Under the pieces are notes generated by a model. It worked only from the letters and a program-made list of their open reading frames with translations. It was not told where the DNA came from and did not search any database. From a virus: 64,000 nucleotides of DNA. Position 1 is the first letter of the stretch; every line of letters begins with the position of its first letter. The stretch spans positions 1 to 64,000 of the IMG/VR virus record IMGVR_UViG_3300009130_001605; one strand, 5' to 3'. The translations under genes and the position numbers were made by a program. This document shows, one piece after another, positions 328 to 40,652 of the stretch.

Positions 328-1497
328 ATGGATATTAAAACACCGTTGGTAAAGGATACAATCGATAAAAATGACACTAAAGCACTTGCTGAGTGGTTAC
401 TTACAAATCCTCGTCTTACAAAAGGGCCAGAGACATTGGCTTTCGAACAAGAGTGGTCTGAGTGGTTGGGTACAAAGTACTCAATTTTTTGTAACTCAGG
501 ATCATCAGCAAATTTATTAATGCTTTACGCATTGATTGCAGCAAAAAAACTTAAGAATCAAAAGGTGGTTGTTCCATCATTGGCATGGGCCACTGATCTT
601 GCACCAGTTGTTCAATTTGGAATGGAGCCAATTATCTGTGATATCAATACAGATAACTTGTCAGTTCATTTGGGTGATTTGGAAGAGATTTTCAAGAAAG
701 AGAGTCCTTCTGTTTTGATGTTGGTTTCTGTTTTGGGGTTAACACCAAATATGACCTACATTGTTGATTTGTGTAAAAAATATGATGTAATCTTACTAGA
801 AGATACTTGTGAATCACTTGGATCAGAACATCAAGGAAAAAAACTTGGAAACTTTGGCTTAATGTCAACATTTTCGCTTTATTTCGGACACCATTTATCC
901 ACTATAGAAGGTGGTATGGTCTGCACTAATGACGAAGAAATGTGTGAGGTTCTTAAGTCTATCAGATCTCATGGATGGGATAGAGATGCATCCGAAGAAT
1001 ACAAAAACAAATGGAGAGACAAATGGGGAACAGAAGACTTCAATGGAATGTACACATTTTATTACCCAGGCTTCAATGTTAGATCAACAGACCTGCAAGC
1101 GTTCATTGGAAGAAGACAGATTAAGAAAGCAGATGAAATTTGCAAACTTAGAAGCGATAATTTCCAAAAATACCAAGACAGAATAATTAACCCAACATGG
1201 AAACCAGCTACAATTGCTGGAGACTACACTTCAAGTTTCTGTTACCCAGTATTGTCTATTCATAGAGATAAAATTGTAGAAGAACTTAAGGCGAATGGTG
1301 TTGAGGTACGTCCATTAATTTGCGGATCTATGGCAACGCAACCTTTCTACATTGAAAGATATGGTAGAAAAGAATTAGGCAATGTAAAAAACTTCGATGA
1401 GTATGGGTTTTATGTACCAAATAATGACAAAATAACAGATGAGGAAATAACCCTTATCTGTAATATCATAAACAAATACACGAATGAGCAAAAATAA
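328..1497 (+). CDS. colD: DegT/DnrJ-family PLP enzyme, ColD-type GDP-4-keto-6-deoxymannose 3-dehydratase
   Basis: NSGSSANLL, EDTCESLG and FSLYFGHHLSTIEGG motifs; His replaces the Schiff-base Lys as in ColD/E1 dehydratases; adjacent to gmd. Confidence 0.75.
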   Translation: MDIKTPLVKDTIDKNDTKALAEWLLTNPRLTKGPETLAFEQEWSEWLGTKYSIFCNSGSSANLLMLYALIAAKKLKNQKVVVPSLAWATDLAPVVQFGMEPIICDINTDNLSVHLGDLEEIFKKESPSVLMLVSVLGLTPNMTYIVDLCKKYDVILLEDTCESLGSEHQGKKLGNFGLMSTFSLYFGHHLSTIEGGMVCTNDEEMCEVLKSIRSHGWDRDASEEYKNKWRDKWGTEDFNGMYTFYYPGFNVRSTDLQAFIGRRQIKKADEICKLRSDNFQKYQDRIINPTWKPATIAGDYTSSFCYPVLSIHRDKIVEELKANGVEVRPLICGSMATQPFYIERYGRKELGNVKNFDEYGFYVPNNDKITDEEITLICNIINKYTNEQK

Positions 1498-1531
1498 AAC
1501 AGCAATAATTTTTGGTATTACAGGGCAATGA
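1484..1531 (+). pseudogene. Orphan 5' fragment of gmd (MSKNKTAIIFGITGQ*)
   Basis: Translates to the Gmd N-terminal GITGQ motif and then stops at TGA; duplicates the start of the intact gmd at 1742. Confidence 0.8.
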
Positions 1532-1538
1532 AATTTTT

Positions 1539-1749
1539 ATGGAAAATAAAAAGTGTGAATTGTGTAATAATAGTTTTGAATTTAACCCAAAACGAAAAAG
1601 AGAAAGGGAAAAAAGATTTTGTTCAATGAACTGCTCTAGATTATAAAGAGAGTTCTGTTAGATTTATGAAATGGATATGTAAAAACAGGGTTATTGCTGA
1701 TCAGTATAAGTATAAATGGGAAAGTTTTAAAAAACAGATAAATGGATAA
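1539..1749 (+). pseudogene. Decayed homing endonuclease remnant (Zn-ribbon N-terminus plus an out-of-frame C-terminal fragment)
   Basis: 1539-1646 MENKKCELCNNSFEFNPKRKREREKRFCSMNCSRL* (CxxC...FCSxxC); a second frame ESSVRFMKWICKNRVIADQYKYKWESFKKQING* ends at 1749, overlapping the gmd start. Confidence 0.6.
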
Positions 1750-2776
1750 AAAAAATAAAAAAGTCGCACTTTTGTACGGAATTACGGGACAAGATGGAAG
1801 TCACCTAGCAGAACTACTTCTTGAAAAAGGGTATGAAGTACATGGTGTAATCCGTAGACACTCCACTATTGGTGGAACAGTTAGGGTTGATCATATTTTT
1901 GATCAGTTAAACCTTCACTACGGGGACATAACAGATCCAATGAACACTTCGAGGTTAATATCAGAGATTCAACCAGATGAGGTCTATAACCTTGCTGCAC
2001 AATCTCATGTAAAAGTTTCATTCGAACAACCTTATTATACTGGTATGGTTGATGGACTTGGAACATTAAATATTTTAGAAGCAGTTCGTATTCATGCACC
2101 TAAAGCTAAGTTTTATCAAGCATCCACTTCAGAGATGTTCGGTGGACTTTCTTACAACAGGCCAGAAAATGGATATACTGAGGAATCAGCATTTCATCCA
2201 AGGTCTCCTTACGGAGTTGCTAAGATTTATAGCTATTGGATGATTAAGAACTATCGTGAGTCATACGGTATGCATGCGAGTAATGGAATTCTATTCAATC
2301 ATGAAGGTGAAAGGAGAGGGGAAACGTTTGTAACAAGAAAGATTACAATGGCACTATCAGCTATTAAGAAAGGTAAGCAAGATGTATTAACACTAGGTAA
2401 CATGGATTCTTTGCGTGATTGGGGTTATGCAAAAGATTATGTGGAAGGTATGTGGAGAATGTTGCAACAAGATACTCCTGGGGATTATGTTCTTGCTACC
2501 AATGAAACTCACACCATCAGAGAGTTTGTCGAAGAAGCTGTTAAATACTGTGGTTGGGAAATCGAGTGGAAAGGTTCAGGTGTTGACGAGAAAGGGTATG
2601 ACAAAGAAACTGGTAAATTATTAGTAGAAGTTAATTCTAAGTATTTCAGACCTGCAGAAGTAGACTTGTTACTTGGTGACCATGGGAAAGCAAAAGAAGA
2701 ACTTGGGTGGGAACCGAAGACAAAGTTTAAAGATTTGGTTAAACTAATGATGGAACATGATTTAAACAATGTCTAA
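1742..2776 (+). CDS. gmd: GDP-mannose 4,6-dehydratase
   Basis: GITGQDGS, YNLAAQSHVKVSF, YQASTSEMFG, PRSPYGVAK, NHEGERRGETFVTRKI and RDWGYA motifs. Confidence 0.97.
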   Translation: MDKKNKKVALLYGITGQDGSHLAELLLEKGYEVHGVIRRHSTIGGTVRVDHIFDQLNLHYGDITDPMNTSRLISEIQPDEVYNLAAQSHVKVSFEQPYYTGMVDGLGTLNILEAVRIHAPKAKFYQASTSEMFGGLSYNRPENGYTEESAFHPRSPYGVAKIYSYWMIKNYRESYGMHASNGILFNHEGERRGETFVTRKITMALSAIKKGKQDVLTLGNMDSLRDWGYAKDYVEGMWRMLQQDTPGDYVLATNETHTIREFVEEAVKYCGWEIEWKGSGVDEKGYDKETGKLLVEVNSKYFRPAEVDLLLGDHGKAKEELGWEPKTKFKDLVKLMMEHDLNNV

Positions 2777-7310: not shown

Positions 7311-8534
7311 ATGTCAGAAAAAGTAGAAGTAAAAGCTCCTACCACAGTAGACCCGATTCAAGCTAAGATTAGTGAGGTTGTTGGTAAATTAGAGGACAAA
7401 AGTTTCTCAATTTATTTTTACGCTCCATCACTTAACTCTGCAAGTGGAGGTGTAGGTGTTTTATTCAAACAGGCCACTATCTTAAAAGAAGCTGGTTACA
7501 ACGTAAAGGTTATTTTTGAACCTAAGGTTAACGAAAGAGCGTCTTACGATGCATCGATGAAATCTAAGAAAAGGATTTTTGTATATGATGAATTTAATCC
7601 ATCTTGGTTAGATTTTGATATTTCTGATCTTGAAATTTTACCACAAGTTGGTGCTGATGAAACTGGTAAGCCAGTTGACAAAATTATTTTCATAAACGAA
7701 GAAGGAAATACTTCTGAGCAAGATGTTAAGCAGATTGAGATTAACACTGAAGATATGATAATCATACCTGAGGGTTTCCCAAACATCATGCAACAATTAG
7801 CAGGTAGTCCATGTAAGAAAATAGTTCTTGCTCAAAGCTGGATTTATGTTCTTAATTCATTACAGCCAGGTCAAACTTGGCAGTCATACGGAATTAGTGA
7901 TGTAATCTCTATTTCTGATGCAATTACTGAATATTTACACTCTGTTATGCCAGGATTAAATGTTAAACAATACAGTCAAAGTATCAACAGAGACTTGTTT
8001 AATGTTCCTAAATTAAGCGACAAAGCTCCAATGATTGCTTTCTCTTGTTCAAGAGGGCCAGAGAACAGGATGAAAACTTACAATGTTATCAGAAACTTCC
8101 AACAATGGCACCCAAAAAATAAATTTGTAAGATTTATGGAATTAGGTGGTCTTTCGAGAGAGGAATATGCGGAGAGGCTTAAAAGTTGCTCTATCGCACT
8201 TTACACTGATGAAATTGCAGGATTTGGAACAGCACCATTAGAAGCAATGGCATGTGGAACACACGTTGTTGGTTGGACTCCTCATGGAGGAAAAGAATAT
8301 ATGGGTGAAAACGGTTTCTGGGCAACAAATGGAGACATTTTCCACTTGTCAGAATATTTAGGTATTGCAGTTGATAAATTACTTAACGGTGAGTTAGACA
8401 ACCCTGAGCTTAAAGAAGCTTACGAAAGCACTTTGAGTAGATATACTGTTGAAAAAGAAAAGGAATCAGTTTTGAACATTTTTGATAAATACGTAGAAGA
8501 AAGAATAGATGAAATTAAAGGAATTCAAAAATAA
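7311..8534 (+). CDS. glycosyltransferase, GT-B fold (GT4-like)
   Basis: N-terminal SGGVGVL; C-terminal DEIAGFGTAPLEAMACGTHVVG; ATG 7311 preferred over TTG 7269. Confidence 0.85.
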   Translation: MSEKVEVKAPTTVDPIQAKISEVVGKLEDKSFSIYFYAPSLNSASGGVGVLFKQATILKEAGYNVKVIFEPKVNERASYDASMKSKKRIFVYDEFNPSWLDFDISDLEILPQVGADETGKPVDKIIFINEEGNTSEQDVKQIEINTEDMIIIPEGFPNIMQQLAGSPCKKIVLAQSWIYVLNSLQPGQTWQSYGISDVISISDAITEYLHSVMPGLNVKQYSQSINRDLFNVPKLSDKAPMIAFSCSRGPENRMKTYNVIRNFQQWHPKNKFVRFMELGGLSREEYAERLKSCSIALYTDEIAGFGTAPLEAMACGTHVVGWTPHGGKEYMGENGFWATNGDIFHLSEYLGIAVDKLLNGELDNPELKEAYESTLSRYTVEKEKESVLNIFDKYVEERIDEIKGIQK

Positions 8535-9461: not shown

Positions 9462-10403
9462 ATGGTAGAAGAAGAAAATTTACTACCAGGTAATCAATAC
9501 GATAATTCAAGTCAACATCAGGAGTATCCTGATGTTGACAATGATGAAACTTTCACAAAAGATGAAAAAGAAAAGGAATTTTTAAATCAATTCCATTTCA
9601 AAAATGACCAGAAAGTATACTGGGGAAAAGAGCAAGAAGTTGCTGTTGAGGACTATCTAAGAATGAGTGAAGTTTGGCTTGAAAACAGGATCAAATGGGA
9701 ACTCAAGGAAGCAAAAGAAGGTAAGAGGGAAACTGATTGGGATCTCATTTTATCTATCGAGGATTTAATTGAAAAATCGAAAGACCCTGAAGTAAAAATA
9801 AAAAGAGAAAAACTCTTTAGAGACAAAATTGATAAGCCATTAAGCAAGTTGGTGGAAAACATTGTTTTTTCTTATAAATTGTTTAGAGGTGATATTGATG
9901 TGAAAAGTCTGCAATGGGATTGCCTAGGGTTTTTAATGGAGAAGTTTGCGAACTTCAAACCATCAAAAGGGAAAAGGTCATTCTCTTATTACGGGACTGT
10001 TGTAAAACACTATTTGATTGGTGAGAAAAAAGACAACTACAAATCTCAAACTAATAATCTTGAATACGAATCTTTTAGAGAGGAAGTAAACAATAGGAAT
10101 AAGTATGAGCTTGGAGATCGAGATCCTTTGGAAGAATCAGCAAGGTTATTTGATCACATTGTTAGTGAGATAAAAATAGAACTTGTTAACACAGAAATGT
10201 CGGATAACGACAGAAATGTTGGTAATGCTATTGTAAACATTTTTGAGAGACACGAAGAAACTAATATTTACAAAAAGAACAATCTTTACAAGCTAATAAA
10301 GGAATATACTGGATTAGAAACAAAGGATATAACTTATTCACTAAACAGGTTTAAAACCTTATATAAACTTAGAAAACAATCCTTTATTACAGATGATGAT
10401 TAG
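9462..10403 (+). CDS. phage sigma-factor-like protein (candidate late sigma)
   Basis: Region-2-like KLVENIV...FLMEKFANFKPSKGKRSFSYYGTVVKHYLI; lies just before the structural module. Confidence 0.6.
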   Translation: MVEEENLLPGNQYDNSSQHQEYPDVDNDETFTKDEKEKEFLNQFHFKNDQKVYWGKEQEVAVEDYLRMSEVWLENRIKWELKEAKEGKRETDWDLILSIEDLIEKSKDPEVKIKREKLFRDKIDKPLSKLVENIVFSYKLFRGDIDVKSLQWDCLGFLMEKFANFKPSKGKRSFSYYGTVVKHYLIGEKKDNYKSQTNNLEYESFREEVNNRNKYELGDRDPLEESARLFDHIVSEIKIELVNTEMSDNDRNVGNAIVNIFERHEETNIYKKNNLYKLIKEYTGLETKDITYSLNRFKTLYKLRKQSFITDDD

Positions 10404-27573: not shown

Positions 27574-29304
27574 TTAATTTTTAATTATATCAAATTCTTT
27601 ACTAGCCCAAGTGTCAGTTTCATTATCCCAAAGTATCTCAATATAAAAATCTTCTGAGTAACCTGTTTCTGTTGTTTTGTTTTTGTCCATGTTTATTGTT
27701 TGAACATGGGGCTCGTATCCCCTGTAATCAGTTGTCAACGTGTACATTCCTGCTGTGAGTCCTGTAAACAAGAATCCGCCTGTATGATCAGAAACTTGCA
27801 TAATTGAATTACCATCTTGGTAAGTTAATTCTAACGTTGCACCTGTAACAACACTACCAGTTACAACTCCACTAAGGGAATAATTACCAGGAGTTTCAAG
27901 GTTTAATGATTCAGGTGTGAAAGAAGCCTCTATTTCATCTACAAAAGGGGAATCTATTTCACCAGACACAAACAACACTTTTGGTGCAACATCTGTTCTA
28001 CCAGTCATGTTGTCAGAAAATGTTATAATTTTTTGATCGACATCGAATACATTTCTTATTTTTTTGACATTACCAATTCTGTACATAAAATCCATTCCAG
28101 TTTTCAATGGAAAACCTGCTTCTTGTATGCCGTTTTCATTTAGGTTTTTTTCTATTTGAAAAATAAATTTTTCACTCGAAGTAAAACCAGTATCTATCAG
28201 GTTATATATCACCTCAACAACGGATGAATCTCCATCACCTACGTTTGAGTAATAAATTTTTGGTGAGAACGTATTAAGGAAACCTGTCACAAGAGGCTCT
28301 TCTATTATTGGCTTGTTGGGTACTGTAAAATATGTAAAAAAATGACCTTGCACAACTATTCCATTAAATGTTGTAGAAGTTATACTATGCTCTTCTATTG
28401 TTGAATTAAAAGGTTCGTATTCTGGTAAGTTTACAGAAACTCTAGCAATAGACTCTCCTGAGTGAAAAGGGGATTCATAAAAAGACAATTCTTCAGATGT
28501 GGTTGTCGCAGTTACACCTTCTCCAATATCTGGATATTCTAAATTTTCATTTTCTGTTGAGTTTATGATAAGACTATCAATATTATCTACAGCCATCATT
28601 TCAACATCCACGTAGTCACTTGGAGTTTTTTCATAAAAAGCAAAAGAGGTGGCAACAAAATATTGACATTTATCTTCAAATAACTCTTTTTTATATAATC
28701 CAGATGTTGTCCCTGTTGTTTTAATAAATTGACCTGGAGCATAATCGTAAACTGGCGTTGTCACTCCAGTGGCCGACACTACATCTTCCAAAAAAGGGGT
28801 TTCCATCAACTTTTGTATTTCATCAAACGAAACAGTGTCTAATTTTGAGAAATTTTCAGTTTTACCAGTAGCAGATGTTTCAAGAACTTTTGTGATAGAA
28901 GAAATTTGATTACCATCTTCATCGTATAAAGTTTCTTTTTCTGTAACCAAGTTCTCATGATTAACCCCTTCTGTTTCTTTTTTGTTAAAAAGAGGGCTAT
29001 AACCTTTATAAGATTCAAAATCTAATTTATAAGTTTTATGAACAATTTCTGTTTTACCACTCATTGAATGAGTGTTTCCAGTAAACTCATATCTAATAAA
29101 TGGAACATTAAGATTTGTAAACAACATATGAGGATCTTGTGAGTAATAGTTCACGGAACCGCCCAAAGTTGTAAATTTAGGTACATCAAAAGTTATGTCT
29201 CTTAACTTATCCTCATTTATATCAACATTTTTGTTGGAATAAAAACTTCTTGCAACAGAGTTATTATCTCCAGTCTTTTTTCTGTATTCTTTATTAATTA
29301 TCAT
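27574..29304 (-). CDS. virion structural protein with a C-terminal carboxypeptidase-regulatory-like domain
   Basis: C-terminal SDHTGGFLFTGLTAGMYTLTTDYRGY. Confidence 0.65.
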   Translation of the reverse strand: MIINKEYRKKTGDNNSVARSFYSNKNVDINEDKLRDITFDVPKFTTLGGSVNYYSQDPHMLFTNLNVPFIRYEFTGNTHSMSGKTEIVHKTYKLDFESYKGYSPLFNKKETEGVNHENLVTEKETLYDEDGNQISSITKVLETSATGKTENFSKLDTVSFDEIQKLMETPFLEDVVSATGVTTPVYDYAPGQFIKTTGTTSGLYKKELFEDKCQYFVATSFAFYEKTPSDYVDVEMMAVDNIDSLIINSTENENLEYPDIGEGVTATTTSEELSFYESPFHSGESIARVSVNLPEYEPFNSTIEEHSITSTTFNGIVVQGHFFTYFTVPNKPIIEEPLVTGFLNTFSPKIYYSNVGDGDSSVVEVIYNLIDTGFTSSEKFIFQIEKNLNENGIQEAGFPLKTGMDFMYRIGNVKKIRNVFDVDQKIITFSDNMTGRTDVAPKVLFVSGEIDSPFVDEIEASFTPESLNLETPGNYSLSGVVTGSVVTGATLELTYQDGNSIMQVSDHTGGFLFTGLTAGMYTLTTDYRGYEPHVQTINMDKNKTTETGYSEDFYIEILWDNETDTWASKEFDIIKN

Positions 29305-32412: not shown

Positions 32413-32604
32413 GAAAAAAGAAGTAAACTATCATCAAAACCAATAATACAAATGAATATAGATGGATCTATAATAAAAGAGTGGGAAAGTGCAAAAAAAG
32501 CATCAGATTTCTTGTATATAAATAAGAACACAATAGTCAGGTGTTGCAGGGGTGAACAGAAAAAAGGTGCTGGTTTTATTTGGAAATTTAAAAACAAAAA
32601 ATAA
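32413..32604 (+). pseudogene. NUMOD1 DNA-binding domain remnant of a homing endonuclease
   Basis: SKPIIQMNIDGSIIKEWESAKKASDFLYINKNTIVRCCRGEQKKGAGFIWKFK*, preceded by an in-frame TAA at 32410; no nuclease domain. Confidence 0.75.
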
Positions 32605-34664
32605 TGAGTGGATTTTTACCTAATGAGCCTAGTGTTTTTATTAATATAAAATTGACCGACACAGGAAGACGCTTACTTTCTCTTGGAAGGCTTACATTCG
32701 ATAAAGCAGCTCTGTCTGACAGGGAAATCAACTACGGCTTTGATAGGCAGGCTGTTGGTGGTTATGATATGCAAAACAATAGGGTTTTAGCACCTAAAGA
32801 TGATCATCCTACTTTCTCTAATTTTGATGGGAGTGACTTTATACCTTTAGGTCCAGCAAGAGTTCATTCTGCTAAGCAAATTGTTTCAGCTTTAACCGAT
32901 TCTGTTGGGTTCTTCACAGGAGACACTAAATCAGGTTTTGGGCTTGATGTTTCGAAAGCAATAACAACAGTAAATATTACATACTCTTCATCTACATCTT
33001 TACCTAACGGAACAAATGTTGTTGGTTATGATGCTGGGTCGGAACTGGGTGGAATTGCTCCAGTTGCAGGTAACTTGATTTACATCCCATGGGAACCGAT
33101 ACAAAACAGTGGGAACACGTTTAATTCAAGTTCTTATGATTTAAACCCAACAAATGCAACAAACGCTCTTTGGTATAGAATAAGTGATGTAACATCTAAT
33201 ATGATGTCTAGTTGTTTAACTTTAGATAGACCAGTTCCTAATTTCGGAACATCTACAACAGACCAAACAATTAGAGCTTACGTTTATCCTTATAACGGAG
33301 TAGAGGATTACTATGGTTCAGCATCAACGGTAAATGTTGGCGTTTGGAACATGAATATTGTTAGAACAAGTGATGTGATTGGAACTGAGTCTACAGGTAG
33401 TGGGTATACAACTTATGGATCAGTTGAGTATAATGGAATGAAAAACTATTTAGGGTTTTCTTCTGAAACTAAATCATTCGGTGTTGTTCATTTTACAAAC
33501 GAGCATACAGGAAATACTTACGCAGAACAATTTGTTGAAAAAACTATTGAGTTAAACCTACCAAATGTAATGTGGCATAAAACAAGTGCCAACGTTGGTC
33601 AAGGAATGGCTCAAGGTCTTACTTTATATGATGTTGCTGGTATAACTTACATTGACTCAGCAAACAATTCAACATACAGAGAGTTAAGGGATGGTAGTTC
33701 AACTGACAACGTTGTTGTTGGTAGAGTGTATCATAAACTTAAAATAATTGTAATTACAGACCCTGAATTACTTACAGCTCTTAGTTATAAGTCAAATAGG
33801 AATTACACAATTCCTAAGCCTCAATTAACACTTCAATCTTCACCAAAGTATCCACTAACATATAATGATGCAACAGGTCTCTGCAATAGTGGTAGCACTT
33901 ATTATGTTACTTATAATTTGGAGTCTGGTTCTGAATATTCACCAAACTCTAGTTTTGGTTATCCAGAAACAATGCCTGGTGCATACGTTTCAAAGGTTGC
34001 AGGAGAATATGATGCAAACGGAAATCCAACATTCTTGTCAATAAACTTCCCTCCAACATCATTCCCTTTTATGAGGTCTGATGTAAACATGGATCCAACG
34101 GGATCTTTCTCTGGAACAGGATGGAATGCAAATAAGATACAAATAATGGTGAACGAAGTTGCAAACACTAGTTCATTGGATTATGACACCATACCAGAAT
34201 ATGGTTGGGTAAAAGTCTCTAACGTAGTAGGTAATGGTATTTACACAGGAGAAACTGGAGAAACTTCAATCAACCCACTTCAATTACAAGCTTATCAATT
34301 TGTTATCTCAAGAGAAGATTATGAATCAGGTACAACTTATTCGTTGGGAACAGGGTTTACAGAAAACATGGATTCAGGTAGTAATGGGTTAACATTCGGT
34401 GATGAATCTTTCTTCTTTGGATCATTGAAGACAGGTATTGCTGCAACATCATTTAAAACATCTATTACGATACCTGTTTCAAATAATGGATTTAACTCAT
34501 CTAACAACCCAACATTTGATAGCGATTTAGATCACAACACATATATCACCGAATTTGGTGTATTTAATGCAGAAAATGAATTGGTAGGAATTGCCAAGCC
34601 AACTTATCCATTGAAAAAGAACAATGGAAAACTCTTGGCACTTAAATTAGAATACGACTTTTAA
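32604..34664 (+). CDS. baseplate/fibre-attachment structural protein
   Basis: N-terminal KLTDTGRRLL and C-terminal YITEFGVFNAENELVGIAKPTYPLKK (tail-collar/gpH-N-like halves). Confidence 0.7.
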   Translation: MSGFLPNEPSVFINIKLTDTGRRLLSLGRLTFDKAALSDREINYGFDRQAVGGYDMQNNRVLAPKDDHPTFSNFDGSDFIPLGPARVHSAKQIVSALTDSVGFFTGDTKSGFGLDVSKAITTVNITYSSSTSLPNGTNVVGYDAGSELGGIAPVAGNLIYIPWEPIQNSGNTFNSSSYDLNPTNATNALWYRISDVTSNMMSSCLTLDRPVPNFGTSTTDQTIRAYVYPYNGVEDYYGSASTVNVGVWNMNIVRTSDVIGTESTGSGYTTYGSVEYNGMKNYLGFSSETKSFGVVHFTNEHTGNTYAEQFVEKTIELNLPNVMWHKTSANVGQGMAQGLTLYDVAGITYIDSANNSTYRELRDGSSTDNVVVGRVYHKLKIIVITDPELLTALSYKSNRNYTIPKPQLTLQSSPKYPLTYNDATGLCNSGSTYYVTYNLESGSEYSPNSSFGYPETMPGAYVSKVAGEYDANGNPTFLSINFPPTSFPFMRSDVNMDPTGSFSGTGWNANKIQIMVNEVANTSSLDYDTIPEYGWVKVSNVVGNGIYTGETGETSINPLQLQAYQFVISREDYESGTTYSLGTGFTENMDSGSNGLTFGDESFFFGSLKTGIAATSFKTSITIPVSNNGFNSSNNPTFDSDLDHNTYITEFGVFNAENELVGIAKPTYPLKKNNGKLLALKLEYDF

Positions 34665-34681: not shown

Positions 34682-35053
34682 ATGGGAAAAATACCTTCAG
34701 CATCAACACTTTCATCTATCGCTTACTTAACTGAAAGTGGTAGAAGATATCTTTACGGAAAAGATAACGATGGAAACCAAATTAGATTCAATGACGATGG
34801 AAGTGACAATTTTGAAATTGTTAGTTTTGCATTATTTGATGGAGATAGAAATTACAAAGTTGCCACAAACTTTAGTACTGGTGAAATGCCAGATATTGCA
34901 GGAACTACAGATAAAACTTGTTTAAAGACAGCTGCTGATATAAGTAGAAAAAACTCTATTGTATATGCAGGAACCATTGTTAACACTGTTGCTGACACTT
35001 TCTTTTACCAAGCAAGTTCTGAATCAGTAGAAATAGACATTGATAGTTTATAA
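34682..35053 (+). CDS. structural protein, paralog family A (AYLTExGR)
   Basis: Shares its N-terminus with 37816 and 38763. Confidence 0.7.
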   Translation: MGKIPSASTLSSIAYLTESGRRYLYGKDNDGNQIRFNDDGSDNFEIVSFALFDGDRNYKVATNFSTGEMPDIAGTTDKTCLKTAADISRKNSIVYAGTIVNTVADTFFYQASSESVEIDIDSL

Positions 35054-35069
35054 TCATTAAAAAACAAAA

Positions 35070-36176
35070 ATGAACGAATTTAAAAAATTAACTGAGGACC
35101 CTGTTAGTACAAGACAAGAAACTCAGACATCAAGAGCAATAAACGGTAGTGAACTAACTTACACTTTGTGTGATAGAACTGATCTAAACAGTAGTACAAC
35201 GAATTATTTTGTAAGTTTCAATTTACCTTACACATCTACTGATTTCCCTACTACTTCTCAACTTTCTTTGTCAAAGCCAGAGTTGCAACAGTTAAATGTT
35301 GACAAAATGGTAATAACTCCGATTGCCAAAGAAAATTATAACGAAATTTTAGACGGTAGATCGATTACTTTTACAGTTCCTCAAACAGGTGCTGGGAGTA
35401 TGTCTGCAAAAACAGTTGTATCTTCTACTTATTCTAGTCTTGATAAGAAAAGTACAAATGAATTGTTAGGATCAAACATTGCCTTTTTGTTCTCAGATGA
35501 TGTTAACTTGCCTTACAGTGGTACAACTGGTGACGGATCTTTTGATAACTCATCAAATTCGACTTGGAATACCACTTCTTCTTTTGCTAACAGGCCTGCA
35601 GCGGTTTCATTCAGCAATATGGGTCAAAATGATTACTCTACAGATGGGAGGGATTTTGCTACTGATGTTAATTTGGCTGTTACAGTTGACGAAGGTTATC
35701 CTTTACCAACTTTGAGAGGTTATAACTACGACATCCCTGTTGGATTTGTTGCATTAGATAAAGGGTGGATGATTCTTACTCACCCAAATATTGTTGACAA
35801 CATACCTTATAACGAAGGGTTTAAGTTGTCAGATGGGTCTTTGAACACAGGTCCTACTTCAGCAACAACAGATATTTACTTTACAGATAACACTGTCTCT
35901 CAATTAAGTTTTGTTGATATTAATATAGAATATAAAACTTCTGTTATTGCATTAGTGTTTCCAACAGAATTCTTCTTTACAACGAACAAGTCTTGGGATT
36001 TGGAGAAAAATTATCAAGAACAACAAAATGGGACTTTTGGTTATGATGCTGTTTCAATTTCAGAAATAGCACTTTATAATGCAAAGGGAGAAATTATTGC
36101 CATATCTAAACTTGATAGACCGTTAGAAAAACAATATAACGATTTAGTTACTTTTAACTTAGACATTAACATTTAA
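35070..36176 (+). CDS. structural protein, paralog family B (ISEIALYN..KLDRPL)
   Basis: Full-length paralog of 36699..37811. Confidence 0.75.
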   Translation: MNEFKKLTEDPVSTRQETQTSRAINGSELTYTLCDRTDLNSSTTNYFVSFNLPYTSTDFPTTSQLSLSKPELQQLNVDKMVITPIAKENYNEILDGRSITFTVPQTGAGSMSAKTVVSSTYSSLDKKSTNELLGSNIAFLFSDDVNLPYSGTTGDGSFDNSSNSTWNTTSSFANRPAAVSFSNMGQNDYSTDGRDFATDVNLAVTVDEGYPLPTLRGYNYDIPVGFVALDKGWMILTHPNIVDNIPYNEGFKLSDGSLNTGPTSATTDIYFTDNTVSQLSFVDINIEYKTSVIALVFPTEFFFTTNKSWDLEKNYQEQQNGTFGYDAVSISEIALYNAKGEIIAISKLDRPLEKQYNDLVTFNLDINI

Positions 36177-36186
36177 AAATAAAATT

Positions 36187-36693
36187 ATGGCAACATTTAC
36201 AGATAGTGAATATACACCATCATACGCTTTCGCTTCGGTTAACCTAAATACAGTTATAGATGGAGTAACAATGGACCCAAAAGAGGTTTATCAGTGTCAA
36301 ATATCAGTCACAACAGCAGACAATACTCCTGCGTTTGTTGGAGATATAGGCAATTCATCTTTACCATATAATTATTACCAATTAGGTTCTGTTAATGGTA
36401 GATCTTATTATTTAGGAATTGGGGGTATAACAAGGAGTCAACAAAATGTTATTCATTTTTTACCCCTTGGATATAACAGTACATTCCCTGGTTATATAGC
36501 ACCTTTGTCAGCTAATGAATTAACTGATTGGAAGACAGCTTGTAAAAATTGGATCATAAGCACAACTGGGTCTGAAAATGCAACAGTTGGAACAAATATC
36601 GCTCAAACAATAACTGTAAGTTTTTATGGTGTTGAGACAAATAGAGAAGAAGAAGCTGGGTCATTCCAGTTTACATTAAAAACAACAGTATAA
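36187..36693 (+). CDS. hypothetical structural protein
   Basis: ORF between the family-B paralogs. Confidence 0.7.
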   Translation: MATFTDSEYTPSYAFASVNLNTVIDGVTMDPKEVYQCQISVTTADNTPAFVGDIGNSSLPYNYYQLGSVNGRSYYLGIGGITRSQQNVIHFLPLGYNSTFPGYIAPLSANELTDWKTACKNWIISTTGSENATVGTNIAQTITVSFYGVETNREEEAGSFQFTLKTTV

Positions 36694-36698
36694 AATAA

Positions 36699-37811
36699 AT
36701 GACACAATTCACTAAACAAGTCGTAGACCCTATAAGCACAAAGCAGGAGATTCATACATTAACGGTGGCTAATGGAAGTGGATTGACGTACACTTTTTGT
36801 GATAGAACAGACTTAGCTTCTAAGGAGGCAAATTATTTCATAAGCTTCAATTTACCTTATGAATTTGATGCTTTCCCTTTGACGGACACTGTCGCTCTTC
36901 AAAAGCCAGAGTTGCAACAATTAAACGTTGACCAAATGGTTATTGTAGATATTGATGGTCAATACTATAACGAACTTATAGATGGTAGATCGGTTAACTT
37001 TACTGTACCTCAAACAAGTAATGGTGGTGCCTCTATTTCCGCAAAGACAGTTGTTTCAACAACGTATACAACTTTGGAAAAAAACACAAATGATCAATTC
37101 TTGGGAACAAACATTGCTTATTTATTTTCCGATGATGTTAATTTACCATATACAGGAACAACGACCCTTACAGACAAGTCTTCTGTGACTTCTTGGATAA
37201 ATCCAGACAACGATAGTATCATGGCTGTGCCAGTTGCTACTTCTTATACTGAATTAGATTTAAGTTCTAACGTAAACACAGATCAAAGACCTTTTTCTGA
37301 TGTGAGTTATGCAGTTGATGTTGGTGTTCATTATCCTGGAACTTCAAACCTTGGATACAACTATGATATTCCAGTAGGATTCGTGGCTCTTGATAAAGGT
37401 TATTTAGTACTAACTCATCCTGACATTGTAAATAACATTCCTTTTTCACAAGGTGTTAAAAGACATAGTAATTTACCAAACACAGGATCAACTTCAGCAA
37501 CAACAGACATATATTTTTCAAACACGAGCACTTCTGCTGCTAGGTTTGTCGATATTGATATTAATTACACAACTTCAATTATTTGTATCATTATGCCTAA
37601 GGAGTTTTACAAAACTACAAATCCAAGTTATGACACAATTAGGGCAGCTGAAGAAGAAGCTGCTGGAACAAATGGTATGGAACCTGTCTACATTTCTGAG
37701 ATCGCATTACATAACACAAATAATGAAGTTATTGCTTTTGCAAAATTGGATAGACCATTAAAAAAGACCTATAGTGATTTCGTTAGTTTCACAGTAGACA
37801 TAAAATCATAA
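36699..37811 (+). CDS. structural protein, paralog family B
   Basis: KPELQQLNVD, GYNYDIPVGFVALDKG and KLDRPL shared with 35070. Confidence 0.75.
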   Translation: MTQFTKQVVDPISTKQEIHTLTVANGSGLTYTFCDRTDLASKEANYFISFNLPYEFDAFPLTDTVALQKPELQQLNVDQMVIVDIDGQYYNELIDGRSVNFTVPQTSNGGASISAKTVVSTTYTTLEKNTNDQFLGTNIAYLFSDDVNLPYTGTTTLTDKSSVTSWINPDNDSIMAVPVATSYTELDLSSNVNTDQRPFSDVSYAVDVGVHYPGTSNLGYNYDIPVGFVALDKGYLVLTHPDIVNNIPFSQGVKRHSNLPNTGSTSATTDIYFSNTSTSAARFVDIDINYTTSIICIIMPKEFYKTTNPSYDTIRAAEEEAAGTNGMEPVYISEIALHNTNNEVIAFAKLDRPLKKTYSDFVSFTVDIKS

Positions 37812-37815
37812 AAAA

Positions 37816-38700
37816 ATGGCAAGATTAGAGTCAGCATCAACAATATATGTTCAAGCCTACCTTACAAGTAAGGGTAGAGAATATTTTTCTGGATTTAATT
37901 TAGATGGTGAAAACGCTAGGTTTGATGGTGATATCGATTTGTTTCAAGCAAAAACTTTTTCTTTGTATGATACCGATGTTAATTATAAAACCACACAGCC
38001 ATTAGAATCTGGTGATGTTCCAGATATATCTGGATCAGACGGATGTTTAATGACATCTGCATACCAACTTAGAAAACATTTTTTAACAAATGGTGTAAAT
38101 GTAGAAGAAATACCATTTGATTTTGCTGTTATTAGATATTCTTGGGAAGCAGTTGGCTATCAAACTGATGTGGATACTAGAACTGCAATTTTGGGTACAG
38201 GATCAGATGCTGTTGACATGGTAGATGTTGGTTATGATAGAGGTACTCAAGTTAACATGACTTACCCAAACCCTGTTGGTGGAGTAGAAAGATATGTTGG
38301 ACCATCTGAAGATGAATATTATTTAAAATGGGGTAGGGACAATGCAAGTGCAAGTGTTGGAGGTAAATATACAGAAAGTGTTCTTGTTGATTTTAATAGA
38401 CTTATAGAAGACTTTGGTACCGTTGAAGAATTTCAAGTTAGACTAAGATCTTATTGGGTTAGTAGCATTGCTATTAGTGGGCCATTGACAGTTGAATTAA
38501 CCACTTATACAGGTGGTGAAATGGTTTATGATTCATATACATTTAATTACTTTAATGAAGGTGGCGTAGAATCTTTTACAACAAGTTTTGATACCGTTTT
38601 AAATCATTATGTAGTAAATGGGAATGAAAATGGTAGTGATGTTGGATTAATAAGTTTTAATGCAGCAACAAGAACTGCTAGTTTAATAAAAGTTGAATAA
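37816..38700 (+). CDS. structural protein, family A N-terminus plus a C-terminal domain shared with the gp7-like protein
   Basis: AYLTSKGREY; FDFAVIRYSW..DVDTRTAI. Confidence 0.7.
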   Translation: MARLESASTIYVQAYLTSKGREYFSGFNLDGENARFDGDIDLFQAKTFSLYDTDVNYKTTQPLESGDVPDISGSDGCLMTSAYQLRKHFLTNGVNVEEIPFDFAVIRYSWEAVGYQTDVDTRTAILGTGSDAVDMVDVGYDRGTQVNMTYPNPVGGVERYVGPSEDEYYLKWGRDNASASVGGKYTESVLVDFNRLIEDFGTVEEFQVRLRSYWVSSIAISGPLTVELTTYTGGEMVYDSYTFNYFNEGGVESFTTSFDTVLNHYVVNGNENGSDVGLISFNAATRTASLIKVE

Positions 38701-38762
38701 AAACAATTACATCATTTATAAAGTTTAAAATTTTTAATAATATTATTTATTAATAAAACACT

Positions 38763-40652
38763 ATGTCAAAAATAAGCTCAGCCACATCACTTACACTCAC
38801 TGCGTATCTAACCGAAAAAGGTAGAGACTACTTGGCTGGGTTTAATGGAAACAGCTCTAATAGAATTGTTGATGGGACGGACATGTTTAAGCCAACGAAA
38901 TTTACCCTTTACGACAGTGATGTAAATTATAGGGTTTCGGATAAACTTACAACAGGAGATCCAACCGATCTTGCTGGAAATAAAGGGGACAATTGTCTAA
39001 GTACAATTGCCAATCAAGTAAAAAAGAACATTCTAATTTATGAAGAAGGAAATACACCAACAATCTCTTTCGAATCTGATCTTTATGTGATAGACGAGGG
39101 GCAGGCTGTTTCTTTTCCAACATTATTAAGTCACTTGCAATTTGGTTTCATAAACAAGTCTGTAGATATATCAATTGACGAAGTTAGGTCAACTCTTGCA
39201 CCAAATCAATATTCAATTGATAATACACCTTCTACATTCACATACGAAGGGAGTATACAGGAATTTACATCCAACTTCACATCTACAACAGACGAAGAGT
39301 TTTTAATTGGTGAAACAAGGGATGTGGTTTTAACTCTCAGTAATTTTGTTGAAGCAGAGCCAGGTGAAATAACGGAGACAACAATAAGAATTAATGGAAC
39401 GGCTCCTCTTGAAATACCAATTAACTTTGATAGATTGGAGGATTCAGTCAGAACAGGATATGATGGACAGCATGGAAACATTGTTATAAATAATGGGTTG
39501 TTAACAGAGCCTTCTTTTGCTAATGCAACAGAAAACTATATGGAAATTGAGATTTCTGATAATCTAATTCCATATATAGACTTATTAAATATTAAAATTA
39601 TAGAATCTGATGTATTAGCTGAAAGTAACAGGCCAATAATATTAGTTGATCGGCATACTGTGTCTTCTATGATAAGAAATGGAGAAAGAGTTCCATTTGA
39701 GATGCTAGAGGGTGATGACAGTTTTGCTATTGACACAAGGATTAGCACAATAGATTCTATTGACTCTTCTTTCAGGGGTTCTATCACATTTAGGATTGTA
39801 GAAGCTGGAGAAGGGATTTCAGTTGGAGTAAGAGATACTTATGTAATAAATGTAGAAGGTGTTGATCAACCTGTTATTCCAGAATGTGTTCCTGCTGTTT
39901 TTGAAGACCCTATGTTTGATGAAGGTAATTATCGTTGGGCACACACAGTCAATGCTCATATTCCATCATATATTGAAAATCTTGATAATAACAATCAAGC
40001 TGTTTTGGCTGTAGAGTCTTTTGATCAATGGCAAGATTCCACAAATGGTGTATCTATGGCTTTTGGTGGTCCTCTAAGTGAGTATGATCGCTCAGACATA
40101 CCAGGGGAAGTGTCTCTTCAAGAAAGGTGGAAATTAATAGATCCTGAAAAAAACATTGATAGTGATTCTGGTATATATTCAAAAATACTTTTTGAAAACG
40201 GAGGAAGTCTTTCTGGTGATTATATTGCAAAAATAAGCATAAGGGCCTATACCGCTGGTAACCCTAGAGATATATTAAGAAGGCCTAGGGTTTATATAGT
40301 TGCAGGGTATAATAACTCTGATTTTGAAATTAAAGCGGAACAAAATTTCGATGTTGAAAATGGTGTCACTGATTCTGGAGTTCCTGATTTTATAAATATT
40401 GAGCTCCCTATAACACTTGATGGAGAAAGTTATTTTGGTTTTTTCGTAAAAGCAATTGATGGAGCTACAGCAGAAGGGGCTTCTGGGGTTAGACTGCCAG
40501 CTTTTGGATATGAAGAATGTCTAAACGAGCCAGACAGAGAATTAAGAGACGTTCCTCAAGGTCAAATTTGGGCGTGTACTAAAGAGTTTGGGGGTACTAT
40601 CGAATTTGCTACCAATGTAGAAGTGGATTCTTTTCAGGTAATTTGTCCATAA
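38763..40652 (+). CDS. structural protein, family A N-terminus plus Calx-beta/Ig-like domains
   Basis: AYLTEKGRDY; PTISFESDLYVIDEG..VVLTLSN..GEITETTIRI; late motif at 38744. Confidence 0.65.
   Translation: MSKISSATSLTLTAYLTEKGRDYLAGFNGNSSNRIVDGTDMFKPTKFTLYDSDVNYRVSDKLTTGDPTDLAGNKGDNCLSTIANQVKKNILIYEEGNTPTISFESDLYVIDEGQAVSFPTLLSHLQFGFINKSVDISIDEVRSTLAPNQYSIDNTPSTFTYEGSIQEFTSNFTSTTDEEFLIGETRDVVLTLSNFVEAEPGEITETTIRINGTAPLEIPINFDRLEDSVRTGYDGQHGNIVINNGLLTEPSFANATENYMEIEISDNLIPYIDLLNIKIIESDVLAESNRPIILVDRHTVSSMIRNGERVPFEMLEGDDSFAIDTRISTIDSIDSSFRGSITFRIVEAGEGISVGVRDTYVINVEGVDQPVIPECVPAVFEDPMFDEGNYRWAHTVNAHIPSYIENLDNNNQAVLAVESFDQWQDSTNGVSMAFGGPLSEYDRSDIPGEVSLQERWKLIDPEKNIDSDSGIYSKILFENGGSLSGDYIAKISIRAYTAGNPRDILRRPRVYIVAGYNNSDFEIKAEQNFDVENGVTDSGVPDFINIELPITLDGESYFGFFVKAIDGATAEGASGVRLPAFGYEECLNEPDRELRDVPQGQIWACTKEFGGTIEFATNVEVDSFQVICP

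What the first reader, a model, noticed from the sequence alone, without database searches (positions are those of the whole stretch)
328..40652. Candidate phage-encoded virion glycosylation system with a [S/T]-[G/A]-x-[T/S] sequon
Seen: a nucleotide-deoxysugar pathway (ColD-type enzyme, Gmd) and two glycosyltransferases (7311, 8509) sit directly upstream of the sigma-like gene and the baseplate/tail module. The structural proteins there repeatedly carry one tetrapeptide pattern. Hand counts: about 10 in 13699-15432 (SGYS, TAST, SGLT, TATT, TGLT, TGAT, SGDS, TGGT, SAST, TGLT); about 11 in 27574-29304 (TGNT, SGKT, TGKT, TGVT, TGTT, TATT, TGFT, TGRT, TGAT, TGLT, TGYS); about 12 in 32604-34664; 5 in the 223-aa protein at 22627; 4 in the first 80 residues of 18429; and SAST/SATS at the N-terminus of all three family-A paralogs. 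I saw only about 1 in the 1153-aa Mre11-Rad50 (its Walker A) and essentially none in the 665-aa PcfJ protein. Established: some phages and giant viruses glycosylate their virions with their own enzymes, and the Bacteroidota host sequon D-[S/T]-[A/I/L/V/M/T] is different. Inference: the motif is an acceptor site for phage GTs that coat the baseplate and tail with colitose- or fucose-type sugars.
Basis: partly seen in the sequence, partly recalled or inferred. Interest (0 to 1): 0.8.

Follow-up and report, generated by a model that had tools for sequence, protein, structure and literature searches.

The report
Sequon-like Thr/Ser-Gly-x-Thr motif on phage tails
The tail, sheath and fibre proteins of this uncultured jumbo phage and its whole clade carry 3-6 times more copies of the four-residue motif Ser/Thr-Gly/Ala-x-Ser/Thr than chance. 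The excess is found only in phages that also carry a conserved pair of sugar-transferring enzymes next to the baseplate genes, so it may mark sugar-attachment sites, but no chemistry shows this.

Summary
Observation confirmed. Every hand count was reproduced. In genes 13699-40652 the motif occurs 86 times against 37 expected from shuffles (z 8.5). The rest of the window has 14 against 14. The core is [ST]-G-x-T (TGxT 26 v 3.4). It acts at protein level and is not caused by paralogy.

It is not a general tail-protein feature. T4 virion proteins give 32 v 32. In 166 S/T-rich tail proteins of distant T4-like contigs the ratio is 1.25.

Both glycosyltransferases are real: 7311-8534 is GT-B and 8509-9450 is GT-A (AF2 pLDDT 93). 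ColD and Gmd are confirmed.

The GT pair sits in a conserved block with the baseplate genes in more than 80 viral contigs. Homologues of protein 13699 are 4.9-fold enriched in 77 GT-bearing loci and 1.1-fold in 32 GT-less loci. About half of the sites turn over between relatives.

The link to glycosylation is still inference. GT presence and motif share one phylogenetic origin. In repeat fibres the motif sits at repeat corners, so it may be structural. The capsid protein is not enriched. I give the acceptor-site reading about 0.4.

The scan noted similar motifs before on other phage DNA (e1-5633868, e1-5403072, e1-5763431).

The parts
328..1497 (+). ColD-type PMP-dependent GDP-4-keto-6-deoxymannose 3-dehydratase
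   Evidence: Pfam DegT 6e-65. The best PDB matches are ColD/WbdK 2gms (E 4.5e-58), ahead of perosamine synthases. The His-His of ColD aligns with the query's GHH.
1742..2776 (+). GDP-mannose 4,6-dehydratase (Gmd)
   Evidence: Pfam GDP_Man_Dehyd 6e-138. Present beside the same module in 4 of 5 relative records.
7311..8534 (+). GT-B fold (GT4-like) glycosyltransferase. The ORF opens at TTG 7269; the likely start is ATG 7311.
   Evidence: Pfam Glycos_transf_1 at 34.9 bits, above the cut-off. A profile of 6 orthologues matches PDB 8xsg (AmGGT glucosyltransferase, PMC12159676) at E 6e-17. 163 relatives in IMG/VR; none in 50,697 GenBank phage records.
8509..9450 (+). GT-A fold (GT2-like) glycosyltransferase, always directly after the GT-B gene
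   Evidence: No Pfam or PHROG hit alone. A 43-sequence profile matches PDB 6p61 at E 5e-5, followed by other GT-A enzymes. AF2 pLDDT 93.3, pTM 0.92. Foldseek 6p61 at E 7e-11, then WrtF fucosyltransferase, TarP/TarS and SpsA. ESM-Atlas neighbours are viral GT2. E128 and D131 are invariant (a DxD-like site).
9462..10403 (+).
   Evidence: Synteny. No Pfam, NCBIfam or PDB match. Remote homologues also lie upstream of the baseplate genes in GT-less phages.
12737..13702 (+). Baseplate hub-like protein (weak gp5 N-terminal match), motif-poor
   Evidence: phrog_430 E 1e-3. 0 v 0.3 in the window. Orthologues in GT+ loci 44 v 40.8.
13699..15432 (-). Motif-rich baseplate protein, the family that tracks the GT pair
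   Evidence: 10 v 2.3. Orthologues 6-26 v 1.2-5. 77 homologues in GT+ loci give 540 v 110.6; 32 remote homologues in GT- loci give 73 v 65.0. 174 of 219 sites lie outside conserved columns.
15558..17829 (+). gp25-like (15558-15953) and gp6-like (15967-17829) inner baseplate wedge proteins, motif-poor
   Evidence: Pfam GPW_gp25; phrog_219. gp6 has 2 v 1.2 in the window. 15 orthologues in GT+ loci give 4 v 20.3; 68 in GT- loci give 140 v 124.7.
18429..23298 (+). Baseplate or tail proteins 18429-21380 (5 v 2.6, four sites in the first 80 aa), 21371-22048, 22067-22627 and 22627-23298 (5 v 1.3)
   Evidence: Orthologues of 18429 give 30 v 13.3 and of 21371 give 19 v 8.9.
24562..26028 (-). Fibre-like protein, motif-enriched (7 v 2.3)
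26044..27537 (-). YadA-head/SHAEG-repeat fibre; motif count explained by its composition (10 v 8.8)
27574..29304 (-). Tail protein with a C-terminal CarboxypepD_reg domain; the strongest TGxT carrier (12 v 2.0)
   Evidence: 16 homologues at 31-56% identity all have 6-16 v 2-3. Eight columns are conserved (DTGFT, SGSTVTGAT); 97 of 195 sites lie outside them. In the AF2 model (pLDDT 59.6) the sites sit at strand/loop borders.
29308..32286 (-). 992-aa fibre or baseplate protein, motif-enriched (10 v 3.3)
32604..34664 (+). 686-aa tail protein, motif-enriched (12 v 4.1)
   Evidence: The orthologue in the complete 388-kb relative has 14 v 3.6.
34682..40652 (+). Fibre gene set. Paralogues 35070-36176 and 36699-37811 (4 v 1.8, 5 v 1.7). 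Three proteins (34682, 37816, 38763) share a 90-aa N-terminus with SAST/SATS at residue 6.

Best explanation
The window is part of an uncultured T4-like jumbo phage; complete relatives are 372-388 kb. In this clade a soluble GT-B enzyme (7311-8534) and a GT-A enzyme (8509-9450) are fixed in a block with the baseplate genes, next to a GDP-deoxyhexose pathway. Some relatives also carry GT2, GT10-like and GT11 enzymes.

I propose that these enzymes O-glycosylate Ser/Thr of outward-facing tail proteins (sheath outer domains, peripheral baseplate, fibres) in the cytoplasm, before or during assembly. The acceptor would be a small turn or corner element written [S/T]-[G/A]-x-[S/T], most often T/S-G-x-T.

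Shown: the motif excess, its specificity, its restriction to tail proteins, its restriction to GT-bearing lineages, its turnover, and the enzyme folds. Inferred: that the enzymes act on proteins, that the motif is what they recognise, and which sugar is used.
For: 1. The excess is strong and specific: 86 v 37.3, z 8.5. TG.T is 26 v 3.4, and also 2.4x what the marginal T(-1) and T(+2) frequencies around Gly predict. Permuted patterns are flat. Flanking residues show no extended context, and codons vary.

2. It is not a generic tail-protein property. T4 fibres give 18 v 17.4 and 18 T4 virion proteins 32 v 32.3. The Flavobacterium phage immuto gives 56 v 50. 166 S/T-rich tail-module ORFs of distant T4-like contigs give 504 v 402, with TG.T 52 v 47.7 and a 95th-percentile ratio of 2.5.

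3. The same protein families behave differently with and without the GT. The 13699 family is 4.9x in 77 GT+ loci and 1.1x in 32 GT- loci. Sheath proteins give 11-15 v 4-5 in GT+ genomes, 7 v 3.7 in a complete GT- phage and 3 v 3.0 in T4. For whole genomes, S/T-rich ORFs give 353 v 132 (GT+), 25 v 11 (distant GT+) and 56 v 47 (GT-).

4. Sites turn over while density is kept: 97 of 195 and 174 of 219 sites lie outside conserved columns. G/A and S/T interchange within the same sheath columns.

5. Location fits exposure. In the sheath, the sites lie in the N-terminal ~430 residues rather than the conserved core. In the 388-kb relative, all 15 of 276 ORFs with p<0.01 lie in the two structural blocks. 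Inner wedge gp6 is depleted in GT+ loci (4 v 20.3) but not in GT- loci (140 v 124.7).

6. The block 5527-GT-B-GT-A-9462-hub-13699 is kept down to 26% GT identity in 80 contigs.

7. The clade genomes have no Wzx flippase or initiating phosphoglycosyl transferase, a bona fide ThyA and no Tet/JBP. Nothing therefore points to lipid-linked or DNA targets.

8. There is precedent. Phage-encoded virion glycosylation occurs in mycobacteriophages (Freeman 2023, cited in PMC12619734). The cytoplasmic heptosyltransferase TibC modifies Ser in NSGGAV and TSAAVS of TibA (PMC4358343).
Against: - There is no chemical evidence of any modification.
- GT presence and motif excess map to the same clade, so the association may rest on a single ancestral event. 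No secondary GT loss was found to test it.
- The GT- homologues of 13699 are remote (21-60 bits) and shorter, so their folds may differ in part.
- In the relative's most extreme fibres (58 v 12.3), the motif sits at every corner of a tandem repeat and includes the widespread 'LPLSGGTxTG' fibre motif.
- TGAT in the CarboxypepD_reg domain overlies a Gly-Ala pair that is invariant across the family (G488, A489), as expected of a turn.
- The major capsid protein is not enriched (3-4 v 2.2).
- Non-structural proteins show no avoidance (14 v 14.2).
- The GT and sugar genes lack the TATTTATW late-type motif (none before 10422).
- The nearest solved relative of the GT-B enzyme acts on small glucosides, not proteins.
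- An intermediate lineage (L014, L016, L017) shows about 2x enrichment with GT status unknown.
Confidence: 0.42

Rival explanations
1. The motif is a lineage-specific structural element: a tight turn or beta-solenoid corner with a small residue flanked by beta-branched or hydroxyl residues. The tail proteins of this clade happen to be built from such units. The GT pair and sugar genes serve another purpose and share only the clade's history.
For: The motif sits at strand/loop borders in the AF2 model. It lies at each corner of tandem repeats in the relative's fibres and in the common LPLSGGTxTG motif. Some sites are invariant, with conserved Gly (DTGFT, SGSTVTGAT). Thr is strongly preferred over Ser at position 4, as expected at a strand start. 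GT and motif co-occur through one shared origin. Distant controls show a weak general excess of [ST]G.T (158 v 102).
Against: The same families (13699, sheath) lack the excess outside the clade. Half or more of the sites are not positionally conserved. Ala replaces Gly at the same columns. x is often Leu, Val, Tyr or Phe, which does not fit a two-residue hairpin turn. There is no flanking context, as a single domain family would give.
Confidence: 0.36
2. The motif is a functional short linear motif for something other than glycosylation by these GTs. It could be another modification of Ser/Thr, a site read by an assembly chaperone, or a ligand or metal-binding loop of receptor-binding proteins.
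For: Density is kept while positions turn over, and the excess is restricted to tail proteins. This shows selection on the motif, not the identity of its reader. A SET-domain methyltransferase is nearby at 3501-3794.
Against: No candidate kinase, acyltransferase or dedicated chaperone was found to track the motif. The only clade-specific enzymes found beside the tail genes are the two GTs.
Confidence: 0.12
3. The GTs and the GDP-sugar pathway remodel host envelope glycans (LPS, capsule; superinfection exclusion) or glycosylate phage DNA. These are known roles of phage sugar islands, and they would have no relation to the motif.
For: Sugar islands with gmd and GTs are common in large phages. 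Diverse DNA glycans made by phage GTs are described (Pyle 2024, cited in PMC12619734). The GT genes lack the late-type promoter motif.
Against: Two complete clade genomes have no flippase or initiating transferase. Their thymidylate synthase is a true ThyA above equivalog cut-offs. There is no Tet/JBP (but the control genomes did not match this family either). GT10/GT11-type fucosyltransferases extend glycans rather than modify bases. The GT pair is fixed inside the baseplate block over deep divergence.
Confidence: 0.3

Closest known systems
Mycobacteriophage virion glycosylation (Che8-type; Freeman et al. 2023, Cell Host Microbe, known here through PMC12619734 and the papers)
   Same: Phage-encoded soluble glycosyltransferases lie beside structural genes. 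The virion proteins are the proposed cytoplasmic targets.
   Different: There the glycans sit on C-terminal tails of the capsid and tail-tube subunits of siphoviruses of Actinobacteria. Here the capsid protein is not enriched. The candidate sites are a dispersed four-residue motif on sheath, baseplate and fibres of a jumbo myovirus. The GTs are unrelated by sequence (no tblastn match in 50,697 phage records).
Bacterial autotransporter heptosyltransferases (TibC/Aah) acting on TibA and AIDA-I (PMC4358343)
   Same: This is cytoplasmic hyper-O-glycosylation of many Ser in beta-helix repeats. The modified Ser in TibA are followed by small residues (NSGGAV, TSAAVS), which resembles [S/T]-[G/A]. It shows that a corner element can be structural and an acceptor at once.
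   Different: Those enzymes are GT9 heptosyltransferases, and the clade genomes have no GT9 match. They modify Ser and not Thr, whereas Thr dominates here.
GtfA/GtfB and SdgA/SdgB: GT4 (GT-B) O-glycosyltransferases of serine-rich-repeat and Ser-Asp-repeat adhesins
   Same: They are soluble GT-B enzymes that modify many Ser in S-[A/V/E]-S-type repeats, followed by GT-A enzymes (GalT1, PDB 5hea, is a weak match of the 8509 profile).
   Different: Similarity is only at family level (SdgA model 20.9 bits against a cut-off of 800). The substrates here are folded beta-rich tail proteins, not low-complexity repeats.
Chlorovirus (PBCV-1) capsid glycosylation by virus-encoded cytoplasmic GTs (own knowledge)
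   Same: A virus-encoded nucleotide-sugar pathway (including GMD) plus several soluble GTs build glycans on virion proteins at non-canonical sites.
   Different: That is a eukaryotic virus with N-linked glycans on the major capsid protein. There is no sequence relation.
General O-glycosylation of Bacteroidota, sequon D-[S/T]-[A/I/L/V/M/T]
   Same: It is a short sequon on Ser/Thr in the likely host phylum.
   Different: It is periplasmic and lipid-linked. Its sequon is not enriched here (26 v 24.9).

Membership tests
GT-B fold glycosyltransferase (GT4-like), for 7311-8534 | Sequence match to the Glycos_transf_1 C-terminal domain above the curated cut-off, and to a solved GT-B enzyme | tested here: met
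   Pfam 34.9 bits against a cut-off of 26.4. Profile v PDB 8xsg E 6e-17 over 254 positions.
GT-A fold glycosyltransferase (GT2-like), for 8509-9450 | Rossmann-like GT-A fold | tested here: met
   AF2 pLDDT 93.3. Foldseek prob 1.00, E 7e-11 to 6p61, WrtF, TarP, TarS and SpsA. Profile v PDB E 5e-5.
GT-A fold glycosyltransferase (GT2-like), for 8509-9450 | DxD metal/nucleotide-sugar binding motif | tested here: inconclusive
   E128 and D131 are invariant in 43 sequences (consensus ExDDE). Their position in the active site was not checked on coordinates.
ColD (GDP-4-keto-6-deoxymannose 3-dehydratase) | Best match to ColD rather than to sugar aminotransferases, with His replacing the PLP-binding Lys | tested here: met
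   2gms/3gr9 E 4.5e-58 against perosamine synthase 2.5e-32. The query's GHHLSTIEGG aligns with ColD's SHHIATMEGG.
Complete GDP-colitose or GDP-fucose pathway | A ColC/Fcl-type reductase in addition to Gmd (and ColD) | tested here: not met
   None is in the 75,938-base contig, which starts 327 bases before ColD. Relatives carry a 305-317-aa SDR about 5 kb upstream, so absence here may be due to truncation.
Phage virion O-glycosylation system (mycobacteriophage type) | Phage-encoded GTs next to virion structural genes | tested here: met
   The GT pair lies in a conserved block with hub and baseplate genes in 80 contigs.
Phage virion O-glycosylation system (mycobacteriophage type) | Glycan mass on virion proteins | not testable with these tools
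   The phage is uncultured, and there are no proteomic data.
Phage virion O-glycosylation system (mycobacteriophage type) | Acceptors in C-terminal extensions of the capsid and tail-tube subunits | tested here: not met
   The clade's major capsid proteins give 3-4 v 2.2. Candidate sites are dispersed in sheath, baseplate and fibres. The tail tube was not examined.
Sequon (acceptor motif under selection) | Excess over composition, confined to the exposed substrates | tested here: met
Sequon (acceptor motif under selection) | The excess tracks presence of the enzyme across relatives, in independent lineages | tested here: inconclusive
   GT+ 4.9x against GT- 1.1x for one protein family, and whole genomes agree. 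However, GT+ lineages form one group, and no independent gain or loss was found.
Bacterial autotransporter heptosyltransferase (BAHT) system | A GT9 heptosyltransferase | tested here: not met
   No PF01075 match in two complete and one partial clade genomes, while the controls matched.
Phage DNA glycosylation (T4-type or TET-type) | A hydroxymethylase or TET/JBP enzyme that creates the base acceptor | tested here: not met
   The only thymidylate-synthase-family gene is an equivalog-level ThyA (344.6 bits against a cut-off of 325). There is no Tet_JBP match, though that search had no positive control.
Bacteroidota general O-glycosylation substrates | Enrichment of D-[S/T]-[A/I/L/V/M/T] | tested here: not met
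   26 v 24.9 in the enriched proteins.

The most novel reading that the evidence does not exclude
A large clade of jumbo phages runs a cytoplasmic, sequon-directed O-glycosylation system. A GT-B/GT-A pair fixed in the baseplate gene block decorates sheath, baseplate periphery and fibres at [S/T]-[G/A]-x-[S/T] with deoxyhexose-containing glycans. Selection adds sites on exposed proteins and removes them from buried ones: gp6 has 4 v 20 in the clade.
Probability: 0.4. Interest if true: 0.85.

Novelty: new variant of a known kind. Interest (0 to 1): 0.68.

Why it matters
Among tailed phages, glycosylation of virions by the phage's own enzymes is established only for mycobacteriophages, and no short acceptor motif is known for any phage.

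If this motif is an acceptor, glycosylated tail proteins could be predicted from sequence in hundreds of uncultured large phages. At least 163 viral contigs carry the GT. It would also explain why sugar islands sit beside tail genes, and point to a glycan coat on the host-recognition apparatus, with consequences for adsorption, protease or defence evasion and particle stability. It would add a new soluble protein O-glycosyltransferase pair with a four-residue tag that could be used for glyco-engineering.

If it is only structural, it still defines a clade-specific building rule for tail proteins, and it warns against reading sequons from enrichment alone.

Tried and rejected
- DNA-level motif: rejected, because codons at the motif vary and both strands are affected.
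- Paralogy or internal repeats as the source in the window: rejected for most proteins. Repeats do explain the extreme counts in two fibres of the 388-kb relative.
- Generic property of tail fibres or beta-rich virion proteins: rejected by T4, immuto and 166 control proteins.
- Host Bacteroidota sequon: not enriched.
- Nucleotide and protein searches of GenBank phages for the module, the GT, 27574 and 32604 found nothing. A test on cultured GT-less phages with true orthologues was therefore impossible.
- The viral-contig search with 27574 found no relatives; homologues came from the protein database instead.
- The AF2 model of 27574 was mediocre (pLDDT 59.6). No coordinates were available, so exposure of the sites could not be measured.
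- The 'sigma-like' identity of 9462 was not supported by any library.
- The partial gene upstream of ColD (2-283) is unrelated to the gene at that position in relative G004.
- Literature searches found no report of this motif or of glycosylated tails in such phages.

Full report
WHAT THE WINDOW IS. The window is the first 64 kb of a single 75,938-base viral contig with about 34% G+C. It has no nucleotide match in GenBank phages. It carries gp25-like and gp6-like baseplate genes, a fused Mre11-Rad50 and a PcfJ protein. Its gp6 is 57-62% identical to that of IMG/VR contigs, two of which are complete at 388,594 and 372,283 bases. It is 27-31% identical to gp6 of a 484-kb uncultured phage, Microcystis phage Mel-JY01 and Flavobacterium phage immuto. 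The contig is therefore a fragment of an uncultured T4-like jumbo phage.

THE OBSERVATION. I called the genes and counted [ST][GA].[ST]. Against 2000 composition-preserving shuffles per protein, genes 13699-40652 hold 86 sites where 37.3 are expected (z 8.5). All other genes of at least 150 aa hold 14 against 14.2.
- The signal is carried by 13699 (10 v 2.3), 27574 (12 v 2.0), 32604 (12 v 4.1), 29308 (10 v 3.3), 24562 (7 v 2.3), 22627 (5 v 1.3) and the 35070/36699 pair.
- The Gly/Ala-rich YadA-head-like fibre 26044 is explained by its composition.
- The core is [ST]-G-x-T: TG.T 26 v 3.4 and SG.T 14 v 3.5. TG.S and SG.S are flat, six permuted patterns give 1.0-1.5x, and the Bacteroidota sequon D[ST][AILVMT] gives 26 v 24.9.
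- Thr at -1 and at +2 of Gly are each 1.6x enriched. Their co-occurrence is a further 2.4x above that, and no residue outside the four positions is informative.
- Codons at the sites are mixed, so the signal is in the protein. BLAST all-against-all shows that the enriched proteins are mostly unrelated.

IS IT WHAT TAIL PROTEINS ALWAYS DO? No.
- T4 long tail fibres give 18 v 17.4, and 18 T4 virion proteins give 32 v 32.3.
- The tail module of Flavobacterium phage immuto gives 56 v 50.
- A gp6-profile search of IMG/VR returned 80 loci. In the 70 distant ones, 166 ORFs with at least 17% Ser+Thr give 504 v 402 (1.25x), with TG.T 52 v 47.7. The median per-protein ratio is 1.2 and the 95th percentile is 2.5.
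- The window's proteins, at 3-6x, are clear outliers.

THE ENZYMES.
- 328-1497 is a ColD-type 3-dehydratase. Its best PDB matches are ColD/WbdK at 4.5e-58, with the His-His of ColD conserved.
- 1742-2776 is Gmd.
- 7311-8534 is a GT-B enzyme: Pfam above cut-off, and its profile matches the glucosyltransferase AmGGT, PDB 8xsg, at 6e-17.
- 8509-9450 had no library match alone. A 43-sequence profile finds GT-A enzymes in the PDB. Its AF2 model (pLDDT 93.3) matches GT2 structures at E 7e-11, including a GDP-fucose-dependent WrtF and phage TarP.
- In a 152,940-base relative the region upstream of ColD holds an SDR/C-methyltransferase fusion, GT2, GT10-like and GT11 enzymes and an Fcl/ColC-like SDR. 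The window's contig is cut just before ColD, so its own island is unknown. Its partial first gene is unrelated to the relative's.

CO-OCCURRENCE. The GT-B gene has no tblastn match in 50,697 GenBank phage records but has 163 relatives in IMG/VR. In all 80 retrieved loci, down to 26% identity, the order 5527 / GT-B / GT-A / 9462 / hub 12737 / 13699 is kept, often with Gmd nearby.
- An HMM of the 13699 family finds 77 members in GT-bearing loci with 540 sites against 110.6 expected ([ST]G.T 274 v 39.7). It finds 32 remote members (21-60 bits) in GT-less loci with 73 against 65.0. One of these aligns with the window protein over three segments and reads WLTSGIKN where the window has WLTGGTN.
- Whole genomes agree. 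S/T-rich ORFs give 353 v 132 in the 388-kb GT+ relative, and its 15 significant ORFs all lie in the two structural blocks. They give 25 v 11 in a 115-kb fragment with a distant GT, and 56 v 47 in a complete 197-kb GT-less phage.
- Sheath proteins have 11-15 sites against 4-5 in GT+ genomes, 7 v 3.7 in the GT-less phage and 3 v 3.0 in T4.
- The clade's major capsid proteins are not enriched (3-4 v 2.2).

BEHAVIOUR OF THE SITES. In the 27574 family (16 sequences, 31-56% identity) every member has 6-16 sites against 2-3. Eight columns are conserved (for example DTGFT and SGSTVTGAT), but 97 of 195 sites lie elsewhere. In 29 non-redundant 13699 proteins, 174 of 219 sites lie outside conserved columns. 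Alignment error in repeat inserts inflates this somewhat.
- In three sheath orthologues the sites lie in the N-terminal ~430 residues and hardly at all in the conserved C-terminal core. The same columns switch between G and A and between S and T.
- The inner wedge gp6 has 4 sites against 20.3 in 15 GT+ orthologues and 140 against 124.7 in 68 GT-less ones. This looks like avoidance, but the 15 are related and each expects only about 1.4, so I treat it as a hint.
- Not everything is tidy. The 9462 family is 3.6x enriched in GT+ loci, probably through a site conserved in one sub-clade.

WHAT ARGUES FOR STRUCTURE INSTEAD. In the AF2 model of 27574 (pLDDT 59.6) the sites lie at strand/loop borders. 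In the relative's most extreme fibres (58 v 12.3 and 38 v 6.6) the motif marks each corner of a tandem repeat and includes the widespread 'LPLSGGTvTGLT' fibre motif. TGAT in the CarboxypepD_reg domain overlies a Gly-Ala pair that is invariant across the family (G488, A489). A corner element can, however, be structural and an acceptor at once. TibC heptosylates Ser in NSGGAV and TSAAVS of the TibA beta-helix (PMC4358343). The clade has no GT9 enzyme, so this is an analogy only.

OTHER TARGETS FOR THE GTs. Two complete clade genomes have no Wzx-type flippase and no initiating phosphoglycosyl transferase. Their single thymidylate-synthase-family gene is a true ThyA. No Tet/JBP was found, though that search lacked a positive control. 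This gives no support for lipid-linked or DNA targets, but it does not exclude use of host machinery. The late-promoter-like TATTTATW (35 v 16.8 in the window) first appears at 10422. The GT and sugar genes therefore lack it and may be expressed earlier than the tail genes, which is compatible with either reading.

VERDICT.
- The glycosylation reading is the best single explanation (about 0.4). A clade-specific structural motif is close behind (about 0.36).
- The association with the GT rests on essentially one evolutionary origin, and nothing chemical is known.
- Virion glycosylation by phage GTs is a known kind. A dispersed four-residue tag on the tail apparatus of jumbo phages, with a GT pair fixed in the baseplate block, would be a new variant.
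- Earlier notes of this scan report similar S/T-G-x-T excesses in other large phages. I did not use them as evidence, apart from testing the BAHT lead.

Noticed in passing
window 15967-17829 and its orthologues (L003-L022, L144-L169): The inner wedge protein gp6 is depleted in the motif in GT-bearing phages (4 v 20.3 in 15 orthologues) but not in 68 GT-less ones (140 v 124.7). This may be avoidance in a buried protein. It is not corrected for relatedness.
   Followed up: partly
window 10422-63614: TATTTATW occurs 35 times against 16.8 expected, and never before 10422. ColD, Gmd, both GTs and 9462 therefore lack this late-promoter-like motif.
   Followed up: partly
G001:C1:123596-125608 (relative; L130): The Gmd gene of the 388-kb relative is a 678-aa open frame. 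The Gmd match is split (positions 1-237 and 230-332) around an insert of about 320 aa, possibly an intein or homing element. Another note of the scan reports a disrupted gmd 5' end at window 1484-1792.
   Followed up: no
G007:C1:47014-49311 (L104): The sheath gene of the 115-kb relative with a distant GT is interrupted by a single in-frame TAA. The 7 kb after its gp6 (L018) holds only one ORF of at least 150 aa. This could be an assembly error, a pseudogene or stop-codon reassignment.
   Followed up: no
window 9462-10403 and homologues: This conserved protein of unknown function always follows the GT pair. Remote homologues also lie upstream of the baseplate genes in GT-less phages. In GT-bearing loci the family holds 43 motif sites against 12.0, although the window's copy has none.
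   Followed up: partly
window 3501-3794: A 97-aa SET-domain protein (Pfam 2.8e-11) lies between Gmd and the tail module. It is a possible protein lysine methyltransferase.
   Followed up: no
L091 3669-6278 (relative G004): An 869-aa fusion of an NDP-sugar epimerase/dehydratase with a sugar C-methyltransferase, followed by GT2, GT10-like and GT11 genes. This is an unusually rich soluble glycan-building island for a phage.
   Followed up: partly
L014, L016, L017 (gp6 41% identical): An intermediate lineage has about 2-fold motif enrichment in its tail proteins (for example 7 v 2.4 and 10 v 5.1). No GT lies in the 7 kb upstream of gp6. The contigs are too short to tell whether the GT is elsewhere.
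   Followed up: no
window 42492-45953: Mre11 (Metallophos) and Rad50 (SMC_N) are fused in one 1153-aa protein, unlike the separate gp47 and gp46 of T4.
   Followed up: no
G001 (IMGVR_UViG_3300024262_006558): IMG/VR classes this 388,594-base, 100%-complete relative as a 'provirus', which is odd for a T4-like jumbo phage.
   Followed up: no
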